The notes: generated from the letters alone by a model not told the origin. A stretch of DNA of 32,000 nucleotides from Psychrobacter cryohalolentis K5 (GCF_000013905.1 NC_007968.1:1-32000); one strand, 5' to 3'. Positions 2,572-27,871 are shown, counted from the first letter of the stretch. Made by a program: numbers and translations.

Positions 2572-2661
2572 TCGATTCCTTATATGTATACCCCAAGATA
2601 ACCAATCAGGCGCTTTCACTGCTCCGGTACCCTAGTGAGGACTTGAACCTTAGGCTGTGAG
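2572..2661 (+). repeat. Site b: GTATAC core (2586-2591) plus inward arm of about 70 nt; inverted partner is site f
   Basis: GTATACCCCAAGATAACCAAT...TTCACTGCTCCGGTACCCTAGTGAGGACTTGAACCTTAGGCTGTGAG matches the reverse complement of 14545-14620, with one 7-nt indel. Confidence 0.7.
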
Positions 2662-2764
2662 ATATTGCTATTAGTACTCTAAATCTATTTAGATAAAATC
2701 AGTGTACATAGCAATGTAACTTTCAAAATGTAAGGTTGAGTATACAAACCGGGACGAATAATAA

Positions 2765-4934: not shown

Positions 4935-5999
4935 CTAAGCAGTGAGTTTTGCCTGTTGCTTACGATGTTTCAGTGAAGCAAGCAGTGCCCAACCAATAAA
5001 GGCAATACCGATCAGTCCCGTAATAAGCTCTGGCACATGGAATTTCACCGATAACAACATGATGATGGCTAAAGCGCCGATGGCATAATGCGCGCCGTGT
5101 TCAAGATAGACAAACTCATCAAGCGTGCCTTTATCAACTAAGAAGATAGTCATCGAACGCACAAACATCGCACCGATTGCAAGACCCAGCATAATCACGA
5201 TAACGTCATTGGTAATCGCAAATGCGCCAATCACGCCATCGAAACTGAATGAAGCATCAAGGACTTCTAAGTATAAGAAACCGATAATACCGCCTTTCAT
5301 AATGGCGCTAGTTGCAGCACCAGTACTATTACCTTGAGCGTCTAGTTCTTCTTCAAGATCACCTTCAAGCATACCAGAAACCACTTGTACGCCAAGGTAT
5401 ACCAAGATACCCCAAATACCCGCAATCAATACCGCTGCTGACTGCTCAGGGTTAGCAAATGATACCGCAATCATCAACACGATAAGCGCCACAAACACGC
5501 TCATGGCATCGACTTTACCCAGTTTTGCCAAGCGGCTCTCGAGCCAATCAAACCAATGTACTTCTTTATCATCAAAGATAAAGTTCAAGAACACCAATAG
5601 TAAGAAGATACCACCAAAGGCTGAGATTTCAGCATGGTGTGCCATTAGTCTTGCCGAGTATTCTTTAGGATCGTTCAATGCCAAATCTATAACTTGCATC
5701 ATACCAAGATCAGCGGTAACCGCGACGATGACAATAGGGAATACCAAACGCATACCGAAGACGGCGATTAAAATACCGACGGTTAAAAATATCTTTTTCC
5801 AAAACTCATCCCAGCCTTTAAGAACTGAGGCATTGACCACCGCATTATCGAATGATAATGAGATTTCCATGACGGCCAAAATCGCGGTAATAGATAAGGT
5901 TGCGATCAAACCACCCATCCCGCCATGTGAATATCCCCACCATGCCGCGATCGCTAATGCAATGGCGGTAAAGATGAAGTCTAAATAAAAATGTCTCAT
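4935..5999 (-). CDS. DUF475 (TerC-related) integral membrane protein
   Basis: LSFDNAVVNASVL and a second ASFSFDGVIGAFAIT motif show the TerC-like duplicated architecture. Confidence 0.65.
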   Translation of the reverse strand: MRHFYLDFIFTAIALAIAAWWGYSHGGMGGLIATLSITAILAVMEISLSFDNAVVNASVLKGWDEFWKKIFLTVGILIAVFGMRLVFPIVIVAVTADLGMMQVIDLALNDPKEYSARLMAHHAEISAFGGIFLLLVFLNFIFDDKEVHWFDWLESRLAKLGKVDAMSVFVALIVLMIAVSFANPEQSAAVLIAGIWGILVYLGVQVVSGMLEGDLEEELDAQGNSTGAATSAIMKGGIIGFLYLEVLDASFSFDGVIGAFAITNDVIVIMLGLAIGAMFVRSMTIFLVDKGTLDEFVYLEHGAHYAIGALAIIMLLSVKFHVPELITGLIGIAFIGWALLASLKHRKQQAKLTA

Positions 6000-6299: not shown

Positions 6300-6331
6300 C
6301 TATTTTGGGTATACCCTAGCGATACCAGTAA
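6300..6331 (+). repeat. Site c: GGGTATACCC (6307-6316) plus arm TAGCGATACCAGTAA; inverted partner is the left arm of the dyad at 8961-8982
   Basis: GGGTATACCCTAGCGATACCAGTAA compares with the reverse complement GTATACCCCAACTGAACCAGTAA. Confidence 0.6.
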
Positions 6332-6451
6332 AACAAACCATAATTTGAGCTAATGAGTTACCTAGAATGAACAATGTTAACAGGACTATTAATTATCTTA
6401 AATGGTTGCCTTTTGGCTACTAGCCCATGTTATGTCTAATAATGATAGAAA

Positions 6452-8384: not shown

Positions 8385-8756
8385 ATGAGTCATATTATGA
8401 AAAAAGAGACACTGACAGGACTGTCTATTATTACATTTGCAGCATTTTATATTTGGATTCAAAATGGCAGTAACCCATCTGATAAAAAAAGAAACACTGA
8501 ACTCGAACAAGCTCAAAAAACATCAAAGATTGCATTGCTAACGAAGTGCCAGAAAGCAGTACAGCCCATGCTTAAAGGTTTTAAATCTATGGACATTAAA
8601 CGAAAAAACACAGACTACAGACGATTAAATAATGGTAACTTTGAAGTCATAACACATTACTACGCTGAAGATAGCTTGGATGCGGCCCCGCTCATTATCG
8701 TCGACTGCTTATTCGATAAAGATGGCAGTTTATTAGAAACAGGGCAGGTTAAATAA
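8385..8756 (+). CDS. Hypothetical membrane-anchored protein (alternative start at 8397, MKKETL)
   Basis: The ORF has one N-terminal hydrophobic helix. I recognise no family. Confidence 0.4.
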   Translation: MSHIMKKETLTGLSIITFAAFYIWIQNGSNPSDKKRNTELEQAQKTSKIALLTKCQKAVQPMLKGFKSMDIKRKNTDYRRLNNGNFEVITHYYAEDSLDAAPLIIVDCLFDKDGSLLETGQVK

Positions 8757-8965
8757 CTTCCAGTATAGCTATGGAGCTGTAGTAGATAAGACTTTAAATA
8801 ACACACCTTTTTCTAAAATTTTTTAAGCTGCTCATGATGCTGGCCATTTGCTCAGCCAGTTTTTTAATATCAGATTGAGTAGTCATTGCTTATTCTCCTG
8901 TTATTGAATTATAAGCAGTTGCACAATTTTTAGGAAAAGCTTTTCAATCTGGAATTAAATTACTG

Positions 8966-8993
8966 GTTCAGTTGGGGTATACCCGAGCGGAAC
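8966..8993. repeat. 28-bp dyad GTTCAGTTGGGGTATACCCGAGCGGAAC (shared end of pairs c/c-prime and d/e)
   Basis: The arms GTTCAGTTGGGGTA and GTTCCGCTCGGGTA (rc) match at 11 of 14 positions around a central TA. Confidence 0.7.
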
Positions 8994-9076
8994 CGGCTAA
9001 CTCACCCTTCAAACCCATTGATAGACCATTTAAAATGGACTAAAGCAGTAAAACCACTTCAAGCGTACTATTATTA
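8974..9076 (+). repeat. Site d: imperfect inverted repeat of about 100 bp, partner of site e
   Basis: The ungapped alignment of 8977-9076 with the reverse complement of 13185-13284 is roughly two thirds identical by hand count. Conserved blocks include AGACCA.TTAAAA and AACCACTT. Confidence 0.7.
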
Positions 9077-9089
9077 GCATATTTTTAAT

Positions 9090-9118
9090 AAAAAAAAGCC
9101 AACCATAAGAGGGTGGCT
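9090..9118 (-). terminator. Terminator downstream of higA
   Basis: The GCCAACC...GGTGGC stem is followed on the minus strand by a run of T (A8 on the plus strand). Confidence 0.5.
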
Positions 9119-9148
9119 TATTAGCGTTTGAATCACTCGAATTCATTA

Positions 9149-9451
9149 TTACACATTAAAGCCTATGTGCTTCCCTGTTGGCAGCTCAACATCGATACGA
9201 AGCTTACCACCCATAGCTTCAACATATTTTTTCATGGTCGATATTTTAAGATCATTGCCGCGATTTTCTATAGCAGACAATGAAGGCTGTTTAATACCCA
9301 TGGTTTGAGCCAGCTCTTTTTGAGAGATCTCTAACTCTTCACGGATACGAGACAGCTGGTTTTCTAAAAGCAGTTGCTCTGCCAGTTGTTTAATACGCGC
9401 TTGGCTATCCAAAGAGCGCTCAGCTAACATCTCTTGTAATGTCTTAGTCAT
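9149..9451 (-). CDS. higA: HigA-type antitoxin, XRE-family HTH
   Basis: SQKELAQTMGIKQPSLSAIENRGNDLKISTMKKYVEAMGGKL is an XRE HTH. The gene starts 1 nt downstream of the toxin gene. Confidence 0.8.
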   Translation of the reverse strand: MTKTLQEMLAERSLDSQARIKQLAEQLLLENQLSRIREELEISQKELAQTMGIKQPSLSAIENRGNDLKISTMKKYVEAMGGKLRIDVELPTGKHIGFNV

Positions 9452-9452
9452 G

Positions 9453-9800
9453 TTATGGATCTCCTAAAGTTCTGAGGTGACACTCATACTGTTGGTCTGC
9501 AGTGGCTAGCATTTCTTTATAAAAACGCTTTCTATTACCCTTATCACCAATACAAAGCACAATCGCTTGCCGCTTTGGGTCAAAGGCAAAAAAGGCTCTG
9601 AGTGGCTTGCCTCTGTGCTGAATACGCAACTCTTTCATGTTGGTAAACTTTGAATCATACACCGTATCTACTAAAGGGCGACCCAAGCTTGGACCTTGCT
9701 GTTCTAAAACCACCAAAGCTGCCAGTACTTTTTCTTGCGTTGATTCGTCTTGCTGATCAAACCATTGGTTGAACAGCTCTGTTGTGATGACAGTCCACAT
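9453..9800 (-). CDS. higB: HigB-like RelE/ParE-superfamily toxin (Gp49-like)
   Basis: LVDTVYDSKFTNMKELRIQHRGKPLRAFFAFDPKRQAIVLCIGDKG is typical of the family. The toxin-first order is as in higBA. Confidence 0.8.
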   Translation of the reverse strand: MWTVITTELFNQWFDQQDESTQEKVLAALVVLEQQGPSLGRPLVDTVYDSKFTNMKELRIQHRGKPLRAFFAFDPKRQAIVLCIGDKGNRKRFYKEMLATADQQYECHLRTLGDP

Positions 9801-9812
9801 ATAAAAACCAAT

Positions 9813-9832
9813 ATATAGATTATAGTCTATAT
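9813..9832. promoter_or_regulatory. Putative higBA operator palindrome
   Basis: ATATAGA-ttatag-TCTATAT lies immediately upstream of the higB start. Confidence 0.35.
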
Positions 9833-9904
9833 TATACAGCTAATCGAGACAGTCTGCAATTATAGTGAGCAGCTCTTAACAGCCTATGCTTAGTGGCGAC
9901 CATA

Positions 9905-10015
9905 TTTTCTATCGTTAACCTATACCCAAAACATAAAACCTCTAAACGATAATTTAGCTATCATTTGACTTATATTAGTAATTAAACGATAGTAATATCT
10001 TGCTATTATCAATGA
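9905..10015 (+). promoter_or_regulatory. Putative res region of the intact resolvase (three A[CT]GATA[AG]-type dyads)
   Basis: CTATCGTT (9909), AACGATAATTTAGCTATCATT (9946-9966) and ACGATAGTAATATCTTGCTATTATC (9987-10010) lie directly upstream of the recombinase gene. Confidence 0.35.
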
Positions 10016-10052
10016 ACATTAATTATTGAGTCTAAGTAATAGAGGTAGCGTT

Positions 10053-10649
10053 ATGACCGTTCGTATTTATGTGAGAGCAAGCACTAAGGATCAAGACGCT
10101 AAGAGAGCCTTGTCTGACTTGATTAACTTTAGCCAAAGCTATGATGATAACCATGTGGAGTACGTTGAACATTTCAGTGGTACGAAACTTGATAGACCCG
10201 CACTTACTCTATTACTCAGTGACGCTGAAGAAGGCGATATTCTGCTGGTTGAAAGCGTGGATAGATTAAGCCGATTATCTCAAGATGATTTTTCGATTCT
10301 AAAGCAGCGTATTAAAGATAAGGGCTTACGATTGGTGGTGGCTGATCTACCAACCACACATACGATGAGTGACGGTATGACAGGTGAGATCCTAAAAGTG
10401 ATTAACGATATGCTGATCGATTTATTAGCGACCATGGCAAAGCTTGATAATGACAAGCGTAGAGAGCGCATTAAACAAGGATTGGCCAACAGTGGCTATA
10501 AACCCACTGGTAAGAAAGCCAATACAGTGAAACACAATCGTATTAGAGCATTGGCCAGTCAAAACAATATGACAAAAGAAGAGATCGCTAAGGCGGTTGG
10601 TGTTGGCGTAGCTACCGTTTATCGTGTCTTAAAGCAGGTTAATAGCTGA
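10053..10649 (+). CDS. Small serine recombinase (resolvase/invertase family) with a C-terminal HTH
   Basis: IYVRASTKDQD carries the catalytic Ser, and VESVDRLSRL is present. The C-terminus EIAKAVGVGVATVYRVL is an HTH. I prefer the ATG at 10053 with the AGAGG RBS over the TTG at 10026. Confidence 0.85.
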   Translation: MTVRIYVRASTKDQDAKRALSDLINFSQSYDDNHVEYVEHFSGTKLDRPALTLLLSDAEEGDILLVESVDRLSRLSQDDFSILKQRIKDKGLRLVVADLPTTHTMSDGMTGEILKVINDMLIDLLATMAKLDNDKRRERIKQGLANSGYKPTGKKANTVKHNRIRALASQNNMTKEEIAKAVGVGVATVYRVLKQVNS

Positions 10650-10816
10650 GGTGTTTTAAATATCGACTCAACGTGATCTTTGGGCTTTATCTAAAGGCAT
10701 CACAACGTCATATAAAAATCGATTTAATGCAATAATGCTTCATTATAATCATTATATTGCATTCATAATTGTTTTTACGCAAAATGGCTTATCTATAATC
10801 GCTTGAGCCACTCATA

Positions 10817-12397
10817 ATGAATACCCCTACCTCAGACCCTATTGGCGCAGCATGGCTTATCCGTCATGCAAGCATCGAGCTGGTTTCCCCTTTATATGTC
10901 AGCAGCAGTATCGGTGGGCGCAGACAAACCTATAAAGACGGTGACGTCATTCATAACGCTTATCAGGAAACCGCGCGTCCACTGGACACAATCATTGCGC
11001 ACTTACAATTTCACATGCGTCATGAAGTACTGAGTTTAGAGTTACTGACTCGTCTGTTTGAGCAGATAGGGGCTGATGATGTACAAGCATGGGTAAACGC
11101 TGAGCCCACAGGCAGCTATGCCCGTAGAATGGCTTTCTTGTATGAATGGCTCATGGGTCAGCAGTTAGCAGTACCGAGTAATTTAGGCGGTAACTATGTG
11201 GACGCTTTAGATGCTAAGAAGCAGGTTACTTCAAGCCCTGCGCATGTCATCAAGAATGCTCGTTGGCGTATCAATGACAATCTAGCAGGAACCCGTCATT
11301 TCTGTCCGATACTGGTGAAAACAGAGGCCTTTACGCAAGCAGCTGCACTCGATATTGCCATGATGGTTGACAAACTTAACGATGAATTTGGGCAAGACTT
11401 ACTGATGCGTGCCTCCGTATGGATGACATTACGAGAGAGTAAAGCCAGCTTTACCATAGAAGGTGAAGGGAAAGAGTTAAAACGTATTGAACGTTTCGCC
11501 GATGTAATGGCACGGCGCACAGGCAAGGGCGATATTCCGCTTGATCCTGAGTCGCTAGCAGAGTTGCAACAAGAGATATTGGGTAGTAAAACTATTATTC
11601 AGCAGTACGGCATCCGTCAATCACCAGTTTTTGTGTCGCATACTCAGGTCAATGGCTTTAAAGAGATTGTGCACTATATCGCGCCACCTGCTGATGACAT
11701 TGCTGAAAAGCTCAAAGGGTTACAGGCATTTATGGAAAAGACCGAGGGGCAATCGGCACTGATACGTAGTGCGGTTGCTTCCTTTGCTTTTGTATATATT
11801 CATCCGCTGGCGGATGGCAATGGCCGTGTACATCGCTTCTTAATTAATGACGTCCTCAGGCGAGACCAGGTCATTCATGAGCCGATTATCCTACCTATAT
11901 CACAAGCCATTGCTGAGCATCCCTCAGACCGTCATGCCTATGATAAAATTTTAGACCGTGTATCCGTGCCACTTATGGAGCAAATCCGTGATCATTACAG
12001 CTTTAATAAACAGGTGATTACTTACCCTGATGGTATTCGCTCAAACTTAAATTTTGAAAACACTCACCTTATTCAACCGGCATGGCGCTTTATGGACTTA
12101 ACGCCTCACGTTCAGTACTTATCAGGATTGATTGCTCATGTTATTGAAAAAGAGATGCATAACGAGTCGCAGTACCTAAGAAAGCATGACCATGCACGAC
12201 TGGCGATAAAAGAGATTGTTGAGATGCCCAACAGCTATGCCGATAGAATCATTCGCAGCATGCTACAAAATAAGGGTGTTAAAAGTAATAAGCTACTGAA
12301 GGATTATCCGTTTTTGGCAAATAATGAGGTTTGGGACGATATTTTCTCTGTCGTTGTAGAAACTTTTAAAGATGAAGCAGATGGTTTGAATAGTTAG
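10817..12397 (+). CDS. Fic-family protein (predicted AMPylase), class II type with an N-terminal inhibitory motif
   Basis: The Fic motif is HPLADGNGRVHRFLIN. The upstream SFTIEG matches the [ST]xxxE[GN] inhibitory helix. Confidence 0.85.
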   Translation: MNTPTSDPIGAAWLIRHASIELVSPLYVSSSIGGRRQTYKDGDVIHNAYQETARPLDTIIAHLQFHMRHEVLSLELLTRLFEQIGADDVQAWVNAEPTGSYARRMAFLYEWLMGQQLAVPSNLGGNYVDALDAKKQVTSSPAHVIKNARWRINDNLAGTRHFCPILVKTEAFTQAAALDIAMMVDKLNDEFGQDLLMRASVWMTLRESKASFTIEGEGKELKRIERFADVMARRTGKGDIPLDPESLAELQQEILGSKTIIQQYGIRQSPVFVSHTQVNGFKEIVHYIAPPADDIAEKLKGLQAFMEKTEGQSALIRSAVASFAFVYIHPLADGNGRVHRFLINDVLRRDQVIHEPIILPISQAIAEHPSDRHAYDKILDRVSVPLMEQIRDHYSFNKQVITYPDGIRSNLNFENTHLIQPAWRFMDLTPHVQYLSGLIAHVIEKEMHNESQYLRKHDHARLAIKEIVEMPNSYADRIIRSMLQNKGVKSNKLLKDYPFLANNEVWDDIFSVVVETFKDEADGLNS

Positions 12398-12605
12398 AAC
12401 AAACCCTGCTATACGCAGGAAAGTCTGCCTTGATAATCAAGCTCAAGCTAGTATCAGTATCATCGTTGCAATAATGATTCGTTTATAAAAGATTCGGCTA
12501 ACATACCGTAGCCTAAAGCGTAATTAGTATTTTTCTTGAGCCTATTTAATTTAATGAAATACTGATAGGAGGCTATTTTGATTTGACAAGCATGAATATA
12601 TATAA

Positions 12606-13178
12606 TTAAAATAATTTTGAGTATTTGAGTATTTGAGTATTTGAGTATTTGAGTATTTGAGTATTTGAGTATTTGAGTATTTGAGTATTTGAGTATTTGA
12701 GTATTTGAGTATTTACCTTAGTACAAGCAATACATTGCATCTGACGGTTAAGTCCATCCTCATAGTCCTTTTTAACAATAGCAGCGAGCATATCAAGCAT
12801 AATCGAATTAATGGTCTGTAATATGCTGATCATAAATTCAATGCTACTCTCAGATTGAGGCGTCATACAAGAGATCGGCAGCTCTTTTGATACGATAGAG
12901 AGCTTTTTTTCTGATAGCATTCTTTTGAGCGTATCCCAATCAGCTTGGTTCAAACGCGCCAAGCGATCAATCTGCTCAACCAAGATAACATCGGCCTTAT
13001 GAGCATCTTCAATCAGCTGCATAAGCGTGGGTCGCACCAAGGTAGCGCCTGATTCGTTTTAGACATAGAAGGCAGCAATTTTGTGGCCATGATCGTTGGC
13101 AAATGCTATGAGTTCGCTTTTGGCACGTTTAGCATCTTGTTCTTTGGTAGACGCTCGTAGATACGCTCTGATAAACAT
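12606..13178 (-). pseudogene. Decayed serine recombinase gene
   Basis: The minus strand from the ATG at 13178 reads MFIRAYLRASTKEQDAKRAKSELIAFANDHGHKIAAFYV. An in-frame TAA follows (13059-13061), and then NESGATLVRPTLMQLIEDA...VEQIDRLARL. The C-terminal HTH is missing and is replaced by the read-through of the 8-bp repeat array. Confidence 0.75.
12619..12714. repeat. Perfect tandem array (GAGTATTT)x12, i.e. ACTC boxes with AAAT spacers on the other strand; candidate parH-like centromere
   Basis: I counted twelve units directly, starting at 12619 with an exact 8-bp period. Confidence 0.9.
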
Positions 13179-13184
13179 AAACAC

Positions 13185-13300
13185 CTAAAATAGTCTGTTA
13201 TAAGTGGTTCCATTATACCAGTCTGTTTTAAGTGGTCTGTTAATAGGTTTGAAGGCCGAAATAACTGGTTCCCTTGGGGTATACTTTTAAGAACTGACTA
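13185..13300 (-). repeat. Site e: GTATAC core (13279-13284), inverted partner of site d; res-like region upstream of the decayed resolvase
   Basis: It aligns with site d as described there. Three direct GTCTGTT motifs lie at 13193, 13221 and 13235. The dyad centre is about 100 bp from the pseudogene ATG at 13178. Confidence 0.65.
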
Positions 13301-13753
13301 AGATTTATCATTTTTTAGCAGTTGCTCCGCTATTCTTTCTTCCCATTCAGTTTTAGAAAGACGACCTGTATTTTGCATCTTTATATCTTTTAAAACCTTA
13401 TGATGAGCATCAAGGTGGTTAATCATATTGATAATATTATTTTGCTGACGCTTTGTTTCAGCGAGCTTTTGGGTAATAACACTCAATTGTTTATCAACAT
13501 CAATCGTGCCATCGTAATAATCATTCAGGAATTCTTTAAATTCATTCAGATTAAACCCGATGGCTTGCGCACTCTTAATCATTTCAATACGCTCAACACA
13601 TTCTGGATGAAATTCAGTGTACAGTCTTGAGCCTGCTTGGCATTTGCGAGATTTCAATAATCCCATTTCATAGTAATGGCGAACCGTATCTTTGGTGGTG
13701 TTAGCTTGCGCTGCTAACGCCCCTATTAATAAAAAAGATGAGTGTGACGGCAT
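13298..13753 (-). CDS. MerR-family transcriptional regulator
   Basis: IGALAAQANTTKDTVRHYYEMGLL is a MerR HTH. The ATG at 13753 is preceded by GGGAGG, and the TTG at 13768 is less likely. Confidence 0.8.
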   Translation of the reverse strand: MPSHSSFLLIGALAAQANTTKDTVRHYYEMGLLKSRKCQAGSRLYTEFHPECVERIEMIKSAQAIGFNLNEFKEFLNDYYDGTIDVDKQLSVITQKLAETKRQQNNIINMINHLDAHHKVLKDIKMQNTGRLSKTEWEERIAEQLLKNDKS

Positions 13754-14272: not shown

Positions 14273-14544
14273 TGGACTATCCGTACTAGATGAAGGGCAG
14301 GTAGTCTAAGCTTATTTTTTCGATAAGTGCAGTCTTGTTCTTCAAGATTTTTTCTGTACAAACAACAGAAACGAGTAGAGCAGAAGGTAAGATGGAAAAA
14401 TACCTCATCTAGAGATTTTATAGTTATTAAACTCATATCTAACACTAGCAATTCGATACCTGTATAGCGCACCGATCACAAACAGAATATGTTAGGTACA
14501 CTACGAAGTACACTGTGACTATTTAAGTGCGCAAAACCATTGAT

Positions 14545-14620
14545 ACCATTAGCTTACAGCCGAAGATTCAAGTCCTCACTAGGGAACCGAACCAGTGAAA
14601 TTGGTTTGTCATAGGCATAC
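14545..14620 (-). repeat. Site f: degenerate core GCATAC (14615-14620), inverted partner of site b
   Basis: The reverse complement reads GTATGCCTATGACAAACCAATTTCACTGGTTCGGTTCCCTAGTGAGGACTTGAATCTTCGGCTGTAAG. Confidence 0.7.
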
Positions 14621-14635
14621 TTACAATAGATTATA

Positions 14636-16963: not shown

Positions 16964-17845
16964 TTAAAGCTTACCTAGTTTCTTATGATTATAATAAGTT
17001 CTTCTCGAAATACCTAAGTCTTCCCAAGGCTTCATAGATTGCTCTGACGTAGCTATAGGCTTACGTTTAGATACCTTACCGCCTTTACTACCCTTAAGTG
17101 CCTGCCGATAAATAAACTCATTATAGTGATAAGCATCACGCTTCCAACAGTATTTAGCAATGCTTTTTGCAGTAGCCTTGATTTCTGAGTACGGTAACGG
17201 CTCTGAAAACATCATATTCACGCTTTGAGCGTGCTTAAGTACTGAACTGTACCATTGATCCCAAGTCTTGCCTCGATGCTCTCTAATGGCAGAATAAGCC
17301 CAATGGCGAACGGTATCGAACAGGGAGCAGTTCCTTCCAAGCCCATATTCTTTCTCGTTAGACGTTAAAGGTCTGAGATCTACGAACTCCGCAAGATAAT
17401 TTAGCTCATAGGCTTCTTTCGTCCATACTTCGGTACGCCAATGTTCGTGCAGGGGGTTTTTGGTGATGAAATTGGTATAACCAACGTCTGCGCGACTTGC
17501 TCTGACAAGCCCTGCTTGTATCTTAGCGAGATAATCTAAGGCTTTACGACTGCCATGCTCACTGGTACAAACAGGCGTTTTTAGCTCATAGACGATATGG
17601 GCGTGTCCGTTTGAGGGGTTTTGGCTTGTCCACCGTGGCGGTGGTAGGTATTCTTCTGCCCATCGCATAGCGCCATGCTCATGATCAATGTCTAAGCAGA
17701 TAAAATGAGTCATGCAAGGGGGGTTGTGCTGGATGTACCGCATTTTGACGGCAGTTTGCCTAGGACGAATGACAAGATTACCTAAACCATCGGTGCAATA
17801 GGGCTTGTAGGGGAGTGTTTCGTATATTTCCGGTAGTAATAACAT
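16964..17845 (-). CDS. ColE2/ColE3-type plasmid replication initiator (Rep primase)
   Basis: LPYKPYCTD, NPSNGHAHIVY, YGLGRNCSLFD and the C-terminal KPWEDLGISRRTYY parallel ColE2 Rep. I prefer the ATG at 17845 by homology, but the ORF is open back to a GTG at 17920. Confidence 0.85.
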   Translation of the reverse strand: MLLLPEIYETLPYKPYCTDGLGNLVIRPRQTAVKMRYIQHNPPCMTHFICLDIDHEHGAMRWAEEYLPPPRWTSQNPSNGHAHIVYELKTPVCTSEHGSRKALDYLAKIQAGLVRASRADVGYTNFITKNPLHEHWRTEVWTKEAYELNYLAEFVDLRPLTSNEKEYGLGRNCSLFDTVRHWAYSAIREHRGKTWDQWYSSVLKHAQSVNMMFSEPLPYSEIKATAKSIAKYCWKRDAYHYNEFIYRQALKGSKGGKVSKRKPIATSEQSMKPWEDLGISRRTYYNHKKLGKL

Positions 17846-17935
17846 CACGCACACTTGTATTGGTGCGCCTGCTGATATAAAATGTCCGTATCGAAAAATG
17901 GGTTTTATATCTGCTGACACAGATTAAAATTCATC

Positions 17936-20270: not shown

Positions 20271-20393
20271 ACTAACTGCCCATTAAAATTCGTAGGTGAA
20301 CTTCTTATTCAGGCCAGGATCACAAAGGGTATTTCTATCTTCTAAAGAATAATAATTGCTAGCATCAAAGCAAATGTTACCATCTATGCAATT

Positions 20394-20461
20394 ACTCATT
20401 TACTCATGTGAACATATGAGTATATACTCATTTGAGTAAAAACTTATATGAGTATATACTC
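20394..20461. promoter_or_regulatory. ParG-type operator/centromere: ACTC/GAGT tetramer boxes in a strict 8-bp register
   Basis: The boxes at 20394, 20402, 20410, 20418, 20426, 20434, 20442, 20450 and 20458 read ACTC, ACTC, GAAC, GAGT, ACTC, GAGT, ACTT, GAGT, ACTC. They are separated by 4-bp AT-rich spacers. Confidence 0.7.
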
Positions 20462-20479
20462 AAATACGGAATCATTTTC

Positions 20480-26923: not shown

Positions 26924-27871
26924 ATGAGTAATAAGCAGTTAATTGCTAAAGACAATAAGTTAATCGGTGCTAGCTACTCTCTTGGTATACCCGAACAGCG
27001 TCTTATTTTCTTAGCAATTATTGAAGCAAGAGAACAAAAACAATTGATTGATGCTAAAGGTGTTCTGAACATTAGAGCAAAGAGCTATCAAGAACAATTT
27101 AAGGTAGAAAAACATACTTCATACGATGCATTGAAAAGTGCTACAAGTGGTTTATTTGATGCTCATTTTGAGTATGAAGATATTCATGAAAAAACAGGAA
27201 AACAGGCTCGCCATGTCATTAGATGGGTACAAAAAATAAGCTACATTGATGACGCTGGTATGGTTGAGCTGCAATTTACAGATGCAGTTATTCCGCTAAT
27301 AACAAGACTTAGCGAGCAATACACAGAATATGAGTTAAAACAGGTTAGCGAATTGCAAAGCGAATACTCAATCAGGCTTTATGAGTTAATGATGCAATGG
27401 AAGGCAGTTGGTAAAACTAACAAGATATCAGTTGACGATCTACGTAGGAAATTAGGTGTTGAGCCCAAGCAATATAAGAAAATGAATAACTTCAAGGCAC
27501 GAGTTCTAGACCATGCTATTAATCAAATAAATGAACATACAGATATTCAAGCTGAGTATGATCAGTATAAAGATGGACGTGCAATTGCAGGCTTTACATT
27601 TAAATTTAAAGTGAAGAAAAACAAAGTGAAAATTGCTGCCAAAGTTGAAGCTGATAACGTCGACAGGTCTACCATTGAAGGGCTAAACGATAAGCAGTTA
27701 GGGCGTATTGCTCGCAATCCTAGTTTTATAGCAGACTATAATGATTTAGTTAGTTCGACTAGCCCAGCTGGTCAAGATATGAATATGTGGGAATTAGAGA
27801 TGATTAATCGCCTTAAGAAAGACATTTCTCAATTTAAGAAACGTCCAATTAGAGAGTATCTTGAATACTAA
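26924..27871 (+). CDS. Rep_3-family (RepB/RepA-type) iteron-binding replication initiator
   Basis: KDNKLIGASYSLGIPEQRLIFLAI and YSIRLYELMMQW are typical Rep_3 motifs. The iterons lie directly upstream. I prefer the ATG at 26924 over the start at 26870. Confidence 0.85.
   Translation: MSNKQLIAKDNKLIGASYSLGIPEQRLIFLAIIEAREQKQLIDAKGVLNIRAKSYQEQFKVEKHTSYDALKSATSGLFDAHFEYEDIHEKTGKQARHVIRWVQKISYIDDAGMVELQFTDAVIPLITRLSEQYTEYELKQVSELQSEYSIRLYELMMQWKAVGKTNKISVDDLRRKLGVEPKQYKKMNNFKARVLDHAINQINEHTDIQAEYDQYKDGRAIAGFTFKFKVKKNKVKIAAKVEADNVDRSTIEGLNDKQLGRIARNPSFIADYNDLVSSTSPAGQDMNMWELEMINRLKKDISQFKKRPIREYLEY

What the first reader, a model, noticed from the sequence alone, without database searches (positions are those of the whole stretch)
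8966..13300. A 4.3-kb cassette flanked by inverted res-like regions of about 100 bp, one abutting a dead resolvase
Seen: 8977-9076 and the reverse complement of 13185-13284 align without gaps, and about two thirds of positions are identical by hand count. The right copy ends about 6 nt before the ATG (13178) of the decayed serine recombinase. The dyad-symmetric core (centre 13281/13282) is distal, and three direct GTCTGTT[AT] motifs lie between the core and the gene. Established: in Tn3/gamma-delta type elements a res region of about 115-120 bp lies directly upstream of tnpR, with crossover site I furthest from the gene. As I recall, the resolvase half-sites look like TGTCYNNTA. Inference: site e is the res of the dead resolvase. 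Site d is a second, gene-less copy in inverted orientation. The HigBA-resolvase-Fic-ACTC-array segment is therefore bracketed by two recombination regions and may be invertible, or may be a relic of res x res exchange. The intact resolvase at 10053 has a different upstream repeat set (ACGATA type), so it probably does not use these sites.
Basis: partly seen in the sequence, partly recalled or inferred. Interest (0 to 1): 0.65.

Follow-up and report, generated by a model that had tools for sequence, protein, structure and literature searches.

The report
Inverted resolvase sites bracket plasmid cassette
Two diverged copies of a ~100-bp resolvase recombination site, common in Psychrobacter plasmids and chromosomes, face away from each other around a 4.3-kb plasmid segment; they look like footprints of past module swapping rather than a working switch, and part of this was already noted in a 2012 paper.

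Summary
In detail: 8977-9076 and the reverse complement of 13185-13284 match at 69/100 positions, against a window background maximum of 48. The window is Psychrobacter cryohalolentis K5 plasmid 1. Both regions belong to a ~100-bp element family found in 85 plasmid records and about 95 Psychrobacter genome loci. Lasek et al. 2012 described it as "IR-RES" but reported only one copy in this plasmid. The right copy is the pristine site and promoter of the dead resolvase (Res1 family). The left copy is a diverged, gene-less member. Across loci, conservation starts abruptly at the distal core GTATAC. At the right core the MerR flank is 98.8% identical to a metagenome contig, where it joins a different element variant. 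The intact resolvase (Res2) has its own discrete upstream site, the ACGATA-type block, which also occurs alone on small plasmids that lack the 100-bp element. Best reading: two orphan Res1-type res sites in inverted orientation, left by site-specific module exchange. Active inversion is unproven and unlikely. This is a new member of a known kind, of moderate interest.

The parts
8972..9076 (+). Left copy of the ~100-bp Res1-family res-like element (gene-less, diverged). Core GTATAC is at 8977-8982 with central AT at 8979-8980; the inner arm and accessory part run rightwards to 9076.
   Evidence: Profile hit of 57.9 bits, E 5e-16. It keeps 37/45 near-invariant family positions: 15/16 in the crossover part and 22/29 in the accessory part. 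It is about 70% identical to every family member. Identical copies sit in the same context in L140-L149, and L116 is 99/100.
8955..8986 (-). Outer arm of the left crossover site. It is a 32-nt fragment (core plus arm) of another copy, joined core-to-core with the left copy.
   Evidence: Profile positions 3-34, E 4e-4. It matches the family consensus at 18/20, better than the inner arm at 16/20.
9081..9874 (-). higBA toxin-antitoxin segment (higA 9149-9451, higB 9453-9800). It lies between the left copy and the Res2 site.
   Evidence: Pfam HTH_3 and Gp49. It is 92% identical to L007 2817-2022. The same left copy-higBA-Res2 arrangement occurs in L140-L149.
9902..10035 (+). ACGATA-type block, the probable res and operator of the intact resolvase Res2. 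Inverted half-site pairs are TATCGTT 9910 / AACGATA 9945 and TATCATT 9959 / AACGATA 9985.
   Evidence: It is conserved upstream of all Res2-family genes, with a sharp left edge in 7 unrelated contexts. Gene-less copies occur on small plasmids (H132-H134). Res2 plasmids pA46P2 and pA27P2 have this block but no 100-bp element.
10053..10649 (+). Res2, an intact small serine recombinase of 198 aa. It is the only intact site-specific recombinase on the plasmid.
   Evidence: Pfam Resolvase plus HTH_7. Best solved relatives are Sin/Bin3 at E 8e-10 and Tn3 at 3e-8. No other recombinase is annotated on the rest of the plasmid.
10817..12397 (+). Fic-domain protein gene, cargo of the cassette.
   Evidence: Pfam Fic. 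It is conserved with Res2 and the array in L004, L005, L087 and L093.
12616..12715 (.). 12 tandem TTTGAGTA (AATACTCA) repeats, a centromere-like (parS/parH-type) array. It abuts the truncated end of the dead resolvase.
   Evidence: the repeat finder family D1. Lasek et al. 2012 describe it as identical to the putative parS of pP62BP1. TACTCA/TGAGTA motifs cluster upstream of this plasmid's parA-parG.
12716..13178 (-). Dead Res1-family resolvase. It has TAA at 13061-13059 and lacks about 50 C-terminal codons (HTH).
   Evidence: tblastn against the intact homologue gives 83% identity over residues 1-161 with one stop. DNA is 91-92% identical to intact genes over 12716-13284. PMC3346939 describes the GAA to TAA change.
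13185..13284 (-). Right copy, a pristine Res1-family res-like element. Core GTATAC is at 13279-13284 with central AT at 13281-13282. The extended -10 TGGTATAAT is at 13220-13212. GTCTGTT motifs start at 13193, 13221 and 13235.
   Evidence: Profile hit of 103.8 bits. It keeps 45/45 near-invariant positions. The same region lies upstream of intact homologues.
13285..13298 (.). Weak outer arm of the right crossover site. It runs into the stop codon of the MerR-family gene (13298-13753, minus strand), the flank that has been exchanged at this core.
   Evidence: The flank is 98.75% identical to L131 up to the core, and the adjacent 60 nt match 60/60. After the core the element drops to 75/90.

Best explanation
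The two ~100-bp regions are copies of the recombination site (res) of one family of small serine resolvases, here called Res1, that is common in Psychrobacter, Moraxella and Acinetobacter replicons.

Each copy has a crossover site at one end: core GTATAC, with exchange at the central AT. This is followed by a strongly conserved inner arm and about 70 bp of accessory sequence with three direct (A)ACAGAC / GGAACCAsTTA-type repeats. In the gene-linked form the accessory part also contains an extended -10 promoter that reads into the resolvase gene.

The right copy is the intact site of a Res1 gene that has since died. The left copy is a diverged, gene-less copy. The two lie in inverted orientation with their crossover cores facing outward.

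The bracket is a product of site-specific exchange of DNA modules at these cores. This is shown for the right core and inferred for the left. The bracket persists because resolvase sites in inverted repeat are not substrates for deletion.

On this plasmid both copies are now orphans. The only intact recombinase, Res2, most likely works on its own ACGATA-type site at 9902-10035 to resolve plasmid multimers. The 100-bp copies could recombine only if a Res1-type enzyme were supplied in trans.

Shown: family membership, the position of the crossover, the exchange at the right core, and the separate Res2 site as a discrete unit. Inferred: which enzyme binds which site, the present inactivity, and the origin of the left copy.
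For: Significance of the repeat.

The same element ends 10 nt before the ATG of intact Res1 genes in about 17 loci. It occurs in 85 plasmid records.

Conservation profile: about 1.9 bits per position from ATACC inward, falling below 0.4 bits by -5 outward, across 71 unique flanks.

Crossover mapping: in 24 pairs with 60/60 identical outer flanks, inner identity is only 52-78/90 and the first mismatch always falls at +4 to +13. Positions 0 and 1 of the core travel with the flank. Together these bracket the exchange to the central AT.

Right core: the window and L131 share the MerR-DUF2798 flank at 98.75% up to GTATACCCCAAGG, after which a different element variant follows. The same flank plus element is joined to CRISPR-Cas I-F modules in L132-L139.

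Other exchanges: the DUF3817-lspA-ccmI flank is joined to at least 6 inner variants. The flank joined to IRL in L057 is joined to IRR in L082.

In-trans use of gene-less copies: strain ANT_H3 has one resolvase plasmid (PMC10457243) and five small plasmids that carry only the site.

Separate Res2 site.

Resolvases with regulatory sites act on direct repeats and block inversion (PMC2764113).

No other recombinase and no further copy exists on the plasmid.
Against: No experiment links either enzyme to either site. The assignment rests on adjacency and co-occurrence.

The 100-bp element is contiguous with the Res2 module in 9 of 26 plasmid records and in 25 genome loci at a fixed spacing of 174-178 nt, so cross-use by Res2 is not excluded.

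The left core has no direct evidence of exchange. Every relative shares the same outer flank, and the only breakpoint seen is at the accessory end, 9076.

The outer arms of the crossover site are barely conserved, which is unusual for a canonical dyad site I.

Both ends of solo copies are sharp, which simple res x res exchange does not explain.

The left copy is no more degenerate than IRR-type copies that do show exchange: 37/45 against 35/45. 'Orphan and inert' may therefore be too strong.

The host chromosome could not be searched for an intact Res1 homologue.
Confidence: 0.75

Rival explanations
1. Active invertible segment: Res2, or a Res1-type enzyme supplied in trans, flips the 4.3-kb cassette between the two cores, as a Hin/Gin-type switch does.
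For: The sites are inverted with cores outward. The central dinucleotide AT is palindromic, so both alignments are chemically possible (PMC2764113). The small Res1 unit occurs in both orientations relative to one flank (L057 against L082). The DUF3817 flank lies at opposite ends of the Res2-Fic segment in L004 and L005.
Against: The ~70-bp conserved accessory region is the hallmark of resolvases that block inversion. No outward promoter or split gene would be switched. Only one orientation of this plasmid is on record. All contigs carrying the left flank show the same junction. The cognate Res1 gene is dead and Res2 has its own site. Invertases score lower than resolvases against Res2: Gin 3.6e-5 against Sin 8e-10. 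The orientation differences between plasmids are equally explained by intermolecular exchange.
Confidence: 0.07
2. The left copy is the element normally attached upstream of Res2, displaced by an ~810-bp higBA insertion, and Res2 uses both 100-bp copies.
For: 25 genome loci and 9 plasmid records have a copy 174-178 nt upstream of Res2-family genes. In the window the distance is 983 nt, and the excess matches the higBA segment. The inner arm of the left copy (AGCGGAACC.GCTA.CTCACCC) is closest to a Res2-linked variant.
Against: 17 of 26 Res2-bearing plasmid records start homology at the edge of the ACGATA block, exactly where the window does (q187 against q190/191). That junction is therefore a recurrent boundary and not an insertion scar. 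Res2 plasmids exist without any element. The left copy is no closer to Res2-linked copies (68) than to others (66-69). In L131 a left-type copy and a Res2-linked copy persist in direct repeat beside an intact Res2.
Confidence: 0.1
3. The pair marks an exchangeable cassette. Two inverted, core-outward sites allow a double crossover (cointegration at one site, resolution at the other) that swaps whatever lies between them from one replicon to another. This would be a serine-recombinase analogue of Acinetobacter pdif modules.
For: 18 loci have two core-bearing copies in inverted, core-outward arrangement. The contents differ: 0.93-kb Res1 units, 1.25-1.37-kb Res2 units, 2.06 kb in L142, 3.6-3.9-kb Fic cassettes, and 4.3 kb here. 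Flanks are exchanged independently at both ends. There are 71 unrelated outer flanks.
Against: No identical cassette has been seen in two different flank pairs. Content also changes at junctions that are not cores, for example downstream of Res2 and at 9076. The left core shows no exchange. About 50 solo copies and one direct pair (L131) do not fit a strict two-site cassette. There is no experimental support.
Confidence: 0.25
4. Chance similarity, or a non-functional AT-rich repeat.
For: None beyond the modest 69% identity between the two copies.
Against: z is about 10 over the window background. Profile E-values are 5e-16 and 3e-30. The family is conserved across genera.
Confidence: 0.01

Closest known systems
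IRL-RES / IRR-RES repeats and the ORF19 serine recombinase (MRS module) of Psychrobacter plasmid pP62BP1 (Lasek et al. 2012, PMC3346939)
   Same: It is the same element family and the same recombinase family. The paper already describes this plasmid's disrupted resolvase (Pcryo_2509/2479, GAA to TAA), the 12 AATACTCA repeats at its 3' end, an IR copy upstream of it, and similar sequences in Psychrobacter chromosomes.
   Different: The paper reports a single copy in K5 plasmid 1. The diverged left copy, the crossover position, the flank-exchange evidence, the separate Res2 site and the recurrent bracketed cassettes are not described there. It gives no functional assignment beyond 'MRS'.
Tn3 / gamma-delta res-tnpR
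   Same: Shared features are a small serine recombinase, a ~100-120-bp site directly upstream of the gene that overlaps its promoter, a crossover site distal to the gene with a central AT, motifs resembling (T)GTCYNNTA, and orphan or exchanged res sites that shape mosaics.
   Different: The proteins are only distantly related (E 3e-8). Direct repeats are visible instead of three dyad subsites. There is no Tn3-family transposase or 38-bp IR. A second inverted copy overlaps the 3' end of the gene in canonical units. The outer arm of the crossover site is barely conserved.
Sin-resH (staphylococcal plasmids) and related two-subsite resolvase systems
   Same: Sin is the best solved-structure match, Sin/Bin3 at E 8e-10. 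The site is compact, 86 bp against about 95. The crossover site is at one end and a regulatory site built from direct repeats is at the other. Sin is selective for direct repeats (PMC2764113).
   Different: The sequences are unrelated at the DNA level as far as tested. A requirement for HU/IHF is unknown. Subsite boundaries are not defined here.
Hin/Gin/Cin invertible segments
   Same: Crossover sites lie in inverted orientation around a segment that contains a small serine recombinase gene. Recombination with quasi-sites is known for invertases (own knowledge).
   Different: Here a long conserved accessory region lies next to the crossover site. No switched gene or promoter is present, no second orientation is on record, and the recombinase is closer to resolvases than to invertases.
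Acinetobacter pdif (XerC/D) modules
   Same: Discrete modules, often toxin-antitoxin genes, are bounded by inversely oriented short recombination sites in Moraxellaceae plasmids and are shuffled between replicons.
   Different: The sites here are not Xer sites: there is no 11-6-11 XerC/XerD-type match flanking the cassette. The enzyme would be a plasmid-borne serine resolvase and not the host XerCD.

Membership tests
Serine resolvase res site (generic: resolvase gene plus adjacent multi-subsite recombination site) | Associated gene encodes a small serine recombinase with an N-terminal catalytic domain and a C-terminal HTH | tested here: met
   Intact homologues of the dead gene are 210 aa. The dead gene hits Pfam Resolvase, and Res2 hits Resolvase plus HTH_7.
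Serine resolvase res site (generic: resolvase gene plus adjacent multi-subsite recombination site) | Site lies directly upstream of the gene and overlaps its promoter | tested here: met
   The element ends 10 nt before the ATG in about 17 loci. The extended -10 TGGTATAAT inside it is read directly from the sequence. The simple sigma-70 scan did not list it because there is no canonical -35.
Serine resolvase res site (generic: resolvase gene plus adjacent multi-subsite recombination site) | Strand exchange occurs at a defined central dinucleotide of a crossover site distal to the gene | tested here: met
   The evidence is comparative only. In 24 pairs with identical flanks, the first difference falls at +4 to +13. 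Positions 0 and 1 follow the flank. The conservation step lies at the core.
Serine resolvase res site (generic: resolvase gene plus adjacent multi-subsite recombination site) | The recombinase binds the site and resolves direct repeats | not testable with these tools
   This needs binding and recombination assays. Indirect support comes from gene-less copies on small plasmids that co-reside with one resolvase plasmid in strain ANT_H3.
Tn3 / gamma-delta family res | Three subsites, each a dyad of TGTCYNNTA-like half-sites with 28/34/25-bp geometry | tested here: not met
   Only direct repeats are visible: three ACAGAC motifs and three GGAACCAsTTA-like motifs. No inverted partners are seen in the consensus.
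Tn3 / gamma-delta family res | Part of a Tn3-family transposon (tnpA, 38-bp terminal IRs) | tested here: not met
   No Tn3-family transposase is annotated on the plasmid.
Tn3 / gamma-delta family res | Recombinase closely related to TnpR | tested here: not met
   Tn3 resolvase scores E 3e-8 and gamma-delta 2e-7 against Res2, which is distant. All NCBIfam hits are far below their cutoffs.
Hin/Gin-type invertible segment | Two short crossover sites in inverted repeat flanking the segment | tested here: met
   The cores at 8977-8982 and 13279-13284 are inverted.
Hin/Gin-type invertible segment | Both orientations coexist, and inversion switches expression of a gene | tested here: not met
   Only one orientation is on record. 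There is no outward promoter or split gene at the boundaries. The metagenome junction scans were uninformative.
Hin/Gin-type invertible segment | Fis-dependent enhancer, and no accessory recombinase-binding sites beside the crossover site | tested here: not met
   A ~70-bp accessory region conserved across the whole family adjoins the crossover site. The enhancer was not tested.
pdif (XerC/D) module | Module bounded by 28-bp XerC-spacer-XerD sites in inverse orientation | tested here: not met
   The pattern search found one match with 3 mismatches at 2451-2474, against 0.26 expected; 21% of shuffles do as well. None flanks the cassette.
IR-RES element family of Psychrobacter (Lasek 2012) | Sequence similarity to the 83-bp repeats flanking the pP62BP1 recombinase, and location upstream of homologous recombinase genes | tested here: met
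   pP62BP1 (NC_019274) matches the right copy at 94% (H57). The IRL/IRR arrangement is reproduced in 10 loci. Both window copies hit the family profile.

The most novel reading that the evidence does not exclude
Inverted, core-outward pairs of these Res1-type sites define exchangeable cassettes. Cointegration at one site followed by resolution at the other would move whatever lies between them (resolvases, toxin-antitoxin genes, Fic, centromere-like arrays) from one replicon to another. Recombination of a strong half-site with weak pseudo-sites would capture new flanking DNA. This would be a serine-recombinase counterpart of the Xer-dependent pdif module system, operating in Psychrobacter plasmids and chromosomes.
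Probability: 0.3. Interest if true: 0.7.

Novelty: new member of a known kind. Interest (0 to 1): 0.45.

Why it matters
If the reading is right, a single ~100-bp site family explains much of the mosaic structure of Psychrobacter plasmids. The same cargo flanks (cytochrome-c maturation genes, MerR regulators, CRISPR-Cas I-F modules) are found joined to different partners exactly at one dinucleotide.

It also gives a concrete, testable site and enzyme pair for cold-adapted plasmid vectors. It shows that orphan res sites on small plasmids can depend on a resolvase encoded on a co-resident plasmid.

For this particular locus the message is more modest. The bracket is a footprint of past exchange around a stability island (toxin-antitoxin genes, resolvase, centromere-like array), not a new mechanism.

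Tried and rejected
(1) Interim hypothesis that Res2 uses the 100-bp element and that higBA was inserted between them. It rested on a sample selected for the element. It was rejected after an unbiased plasmid search, an alignment of the upstream regions, and the finding that small Res2 plasmids lack the element.

(2) Left copy as the site of a deleted resolvase next to higBA, as in NZ_CP012709. The topology fits, but sequence gives no support: 66% identity against 68-69% to the other types. Left open.

(3) Scans of metagenome contigs for the left flank joined to a typical inner arm, and for the native junction. Both gave 0 hits, so the test is uninformative.

(4) Xer/pdif sites: none found.

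(5) A tRNA or known RNA as an explanation for the second repeat at 2580-2671 and 14543-14627: none found.

(6) A target-site duplication or terminal inverted repeats within the element, which would indicate a transposon or MITE: none seen by reading the ends.

(7) The sigma-70 consensus scan does not support or refute the promoter; overall counts are at the shuffle level.

(8) The host chromosome could not be searched for an intact Res1 gene with the collections available.

Full report
SOURCE AND CONTEXT

The window is 100% identical to Psychrobacter cryohalolentis FDAARGOS_308 (strain K5) plasmid unnamed1, NZ_CP022042.2, 41,221 bp. Window coordinate equals record coordinate plus 1445.

Gene order around the finding:
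- K+/H+ antiporter on the minus strand
- a 119-aa hypothetical gene (8397-8756)
- the left repeat
- higA and higB, minus strand
- an intact serine recombinase, 10053-10649, called Res2 here
- a Fic protein
- 12 tandem TTTGAGTA repeats
- a dead serine recombinase on the minus strand, called Res1 here
- the right repeat
- a MerR-family gene and a DUF2798 gene, minus strand

The rest of the plasmid carries no other site-specific recombinase and no further copy of the repeat.

THE OBSERVATION

8977-9076 and the reverse complement of 13185-13284 match at 69 of 100 positions without gaps. The best unrelated 100-mer in the window reaches 48, with mean 26 and sd 4.4. The repeat finder gives the same pair.

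- GTATAC is at 13279-13284, so the centre is 13281/13282.
- Three direct GTCTGTT motifs start at 13193, 13221 and 13235.
- The recombinase ATG is at 13178, 6 nt from the repeat.

The recombinase has an ochre codon at 13061-13059. It also lacks about its last 50 codons, with homology to intact genes stopping at 12716 where the 8-mer array begins.

WHAT IS ALREADY PUBLISHED

Lasek et al. 2012 (PMC3346939) analysed plasmid pP62BP1 and compared it with this plasmid. They describe:
- the disrupted recombinase (GAA to TAA)
- the twelve AATACTCA repeats at its 3' end, identical to the putative parS of pP62BP1
- 83-bp inverted repeats (IRL-RES and IRR-RES) flanking the pP62BP1 recombinase
- 'single copies of the IR' upstream of the homologues in K5 plasmid 1 and pRWF101
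- similar sequences in Psychrobacter chromosomes

So the right copy and the dead gene are known. The left copy is not mentioned, and no crossover site or function was assigned.

THE ELEMENT FAMILY

blastn with the right copy finds 85 plasmid records: 57 Psychrobacter, 22 Acinetobacter and 2 Moraxella. A degenerate pattern that fits both window copies retrieved 120 genome loci, about 95 of them genuine, on plasmid-size and megabase contigs.

A profile of 81 copies hits the window exactly twice at significant level: right 103.8 bits, left 57.9 bits.

In that pattern-selected sample:
- About 17 copies end 10 nt before intact Res1-family genes.
- 25 copies lie 174-178 nt upstream of Res2-family genes.
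- About 50 are solo.

In at least 10 loci the Res1 gene is flanked by a full copy upstream and a diverged copy overlapping its stop codon. These are in inverted orientation with both cores outward, which is the IRL/IRR arrangement.

WHERE RECOMBINATION HAPPENS

Across 71 unique flanks, information content is about 1.9 bits per position from ATACC inward. It falls below 0.4 bits five bases outward. Only a faint mirror image of the inner arm remains outside.

Megablast and blastn homology between replicons stops at the core.

In 24 locus pairs whose 60 outer bases are identical, the inner 90 bases are only 52-78 identical. The first difference always falls at +4 to +13 from the G of GTATAC. Conversely, positions 0 and 1 vary with the flank while the inner sequence stays constant.

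At least eight independent flank groups show this. The DUF3817-lspA-ccmI flank alone is joined to at least six inner variants. The flank joined to IRL in L057 is joined to IRR in L082. A switch point confined to the first few bases, and not spread along the 100 bp, argues for site-specific and not homologous recombination. That last step is my inference.

THE RIGHT COPY

It keeps 45 of 45 near-invariant family positions. It contains a perfect extended -10 (TGGTATAAT, 13220-13212) reading into the dead gene. This is read directly from the sequence; the simple promoter scan, which needs a -35, does not list it.

Its outer flank is the 3' end of the MerR gene. In metagenome contig L131 the same MerR-DUF2798 segment is 98.75% identical up to GTATACCCCAAGG. 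It then continues into a different element variant (75/90) followed by a Res2-type gene. In L132-L139 the same flank and element are followed by a type I-F CRISPR-Cas locus.

The right boundary of the cassette is thus a demonstrable, fairly recent site-specific junction.

THE LEFT COPY

It keeps 37 of 45 near-invariant positions: 15/16 in the crossover part and 22/29 in the accessory part. Two of the three CAGAC motifs are altered. It is about 70% identical to every other family member, roughly 80% over the first 55 nt and 55-60% over the rest. It has no -10.

This is no worse than IRR-type copies (35/45), which do take part in exchanges, so it cannot be called dead on sequence alone.

Its outer arm (8986-8955, minus strand) is a 32-nt fragment of another copy and matches the consensus at 18/20. 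The left site is therefore a core-to-core junction of two copies. That is what a site x site crossover would leave, which is my inference.

All relatives that carry this copy share the same outer flank: L116, L131 and L140-L149. Where L131 departs from the window it does so at the accessory end (9076), not at the core. In L131 the copy has drifted at family-invariant positions, keeping 35/45.

Its origin remains open. A deleted Res1 gene upstream of higBA, as in NZ_CP012709, fits the topology but gains no support from sequence.

RES2 AND THE ACGATA BLOCK

I first thought Res2 used the 100-bp element, because of the fixed 174-178-nt spacing in 25 loci. That sample had been selected for the element.

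An unbiased search of the plasmid collection with a complete unit gave a different picture. Of 26 records that match the Res2 5' region, only 9 have the element contiguous. The other 17, including this plasmid, begin homology at q181-202, mostly at one point about 148 nt before the ATG.

An alignment of 11 upstream regions shows a conserved block starting at CTAYCATTAG, with unrelated DNA to its left in seven contexts. Gene-less copies of just this block sit on three small plasmids (H132-H134).

Plasmids pA46P2 (4,061 bp) and pA27P2 (4,982 bp) encode Res2-family proteins that are 86% and 84% identical to the window's. They have the block but no trace of the 100-bp element.

In the window the block spans about 9902-10035. 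It contains two inverted half-site pairs with different spacing: TATCGTT/AACGATA at 9910/9945 and TATCATT/AACGATA at 9959/9985.

Res1 and Res2 are 42% identical over 175 residues, and their C-terminal HTH regions do not align.

The junction between higBA and the Res2 module (about 9900) is a recurrent boundary of that site and not an insertion scar.

RECURRING BRACKETS

Inverted, core-outward pairs recur with different contents:
- Res1 units, 0.93 kb, in 10 loci
- Res2 units, 1.25-1.37 kb (L016, L042, L100)
- left copy-higBA-Res2-copy, 2.06 kb (L142)
- element-Res2-Fic-array-dead Res1-element, 3.6-3.9 kb (L004, L087, L093)
- the 4.3-kb window version

In all four Fic cassettes the Res1 gene is dead while Res2 is intact.

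The only direct pair with two cores is L131. It sits next to an intact Res2, which is consistent with Res2 not acting on these copies (inference).

MECHANISM

Both recombinases are small serine recombinases, distantly related to Sin/Bin3 (E 8e-10) and to Tn3/gamma-delta (3e-8 to 2e-7). They fall below all curated family cutoffs. Lasek et al. placed the Res1 type in the SR_ResPar subgroup.

For such enzymes, regulatory sites next to the crossover site restrict recombination to direct repeats and block inversion. A palindromic central AT leaves both alignments chemically possible (PMC2764113).

I therefore read the window pair as two Res1-type res sites that cannot delete the intervening DNA because they are inverted. 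They are orphaned because Res1 is dead. They mark where modules were joined. Res2 and its ACGATA block provide the plasmid's own multimer resolution.

Gene-less sites can work in trans. Strain ANT_H3 has eleven plasmids, and only pA3H11 carries the resolvase module (PMC10457243). Yet pA3H1, pA3H2, pA3H4, pA3H8 and pA3H9 carry the element without a gene.

WHAT REMAINS ODD

- The outer arm of the crossover site is hardly conserved, which implies many joins to non-site DNA or a one-armed requirement.
- Solo copies have sharp boundaries at both ends.
- The Res2 block shows the same one-sided conservation.
- Junctions also occur at non-core positions (9076, and downstream of Res2).

These features leave room for a more active module-exchange system. 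That is the novel reading, at about 0.3.

VERDICT

The locus is a new, diverged second copy within a known but uncharacterised site family. Its crossover point and exchange history are now mapped by comparison. Invertibility is not supported.

Noticed in passing
window 2580-2671 (+) and 14543-14627 (-): A second, different inverted repeat of about 90 nt, with a 45-nt core at 89% identity. Each arm starts with a degenerate core plus arm of the 100-bp element, followed by TTTCACTG.T.CGGT.CCCTAGTGAGGACTTGAA.CTT.GGCTGT.AG. The pair encloses 12 kb that include the cassette. The same sequence, inverted, abuts the Res2 block in L151 and L152. No tRNA or Rfam match was found.
   Followed up: partly
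window 2586-2608, 6309-6350, 1357-1375 (all +): Extra core-plus-arm relics of the element: 17/20, 15/20 and 14/20 to the family consensus. There are six hits of at least 14/20 in the window against 0.9 expected. The 6309 relic is an internally deleted copy that is conserved in P. faecalis (L116). They lie in intergenic gaps between cargo modules.
   Followed up: partly
window 12616-12715 and 20390-20470: The 12 x TTTGAGTA array has the ACTC-box-plus-4-bp-spacer form of ParG-type centromeres (my recollection of TP228 parH). TACTCA/TGAGTA motifs also cluster just upstream of this plasmid's parA-parG. The array recurs next to element copies in L004, L005, L042, L087 and L093.
   Followed up: partly
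L132-L139 (metagenome and isolate contigs): The MerR flank plus a Res1-type element copy (102 bits) is followed about 540 nt later by a type I-F CRISPR-Cas locus (cas1, cas2-3, csy1, csy2) in place of a resolvase gene.
   Followed up: no
L131 5436-8331: This contig joins the cassette's left flank and a left-type copy to an inverted DUF2798-MerR segment, then to a Res2-linked copy and Res2. The two element copies are in direct repeat, 1.46 kb apart, beside an intact Res2.
   Followed up: yes
L005 5781-5834, L004 about 5800-5850; window 12540-12600 (degenerate): A partial element remnant (profile positions 49-102, accessory and promoter part only, no core) lies between the Fic gene and the 8-mer array, in direct orientation with the upstream copy.
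   Followed up: partly
plasmids CP151287.2, MN657065, MN657069 (H132-H134): Gene-less copies of the ACGATA-type Res2 block sit on 4.5-6.5-kb plasmids. This parallels the orphan 100-bp elements and suggests in-trans use of Res2-type enzymes as well.
   Followed up: no
window 16964-17920 (-) and 26924-27871 (+): The plasmid carries two unrelated replication initiator genes (Replicase/PriCT_1 and RepM), so it may descend from a fusion of two replicons.
   Followed up: no
window 8797-8886 (-): A 30-aa ORF (MTTQSDIKKLAEQMASIMSSLKNFRKRCVI) lies just outside the left core. It is called as a gene in several metagenome contigs (L140, L142, L143 and L146-L149). Function unknown.
   Followed up: no
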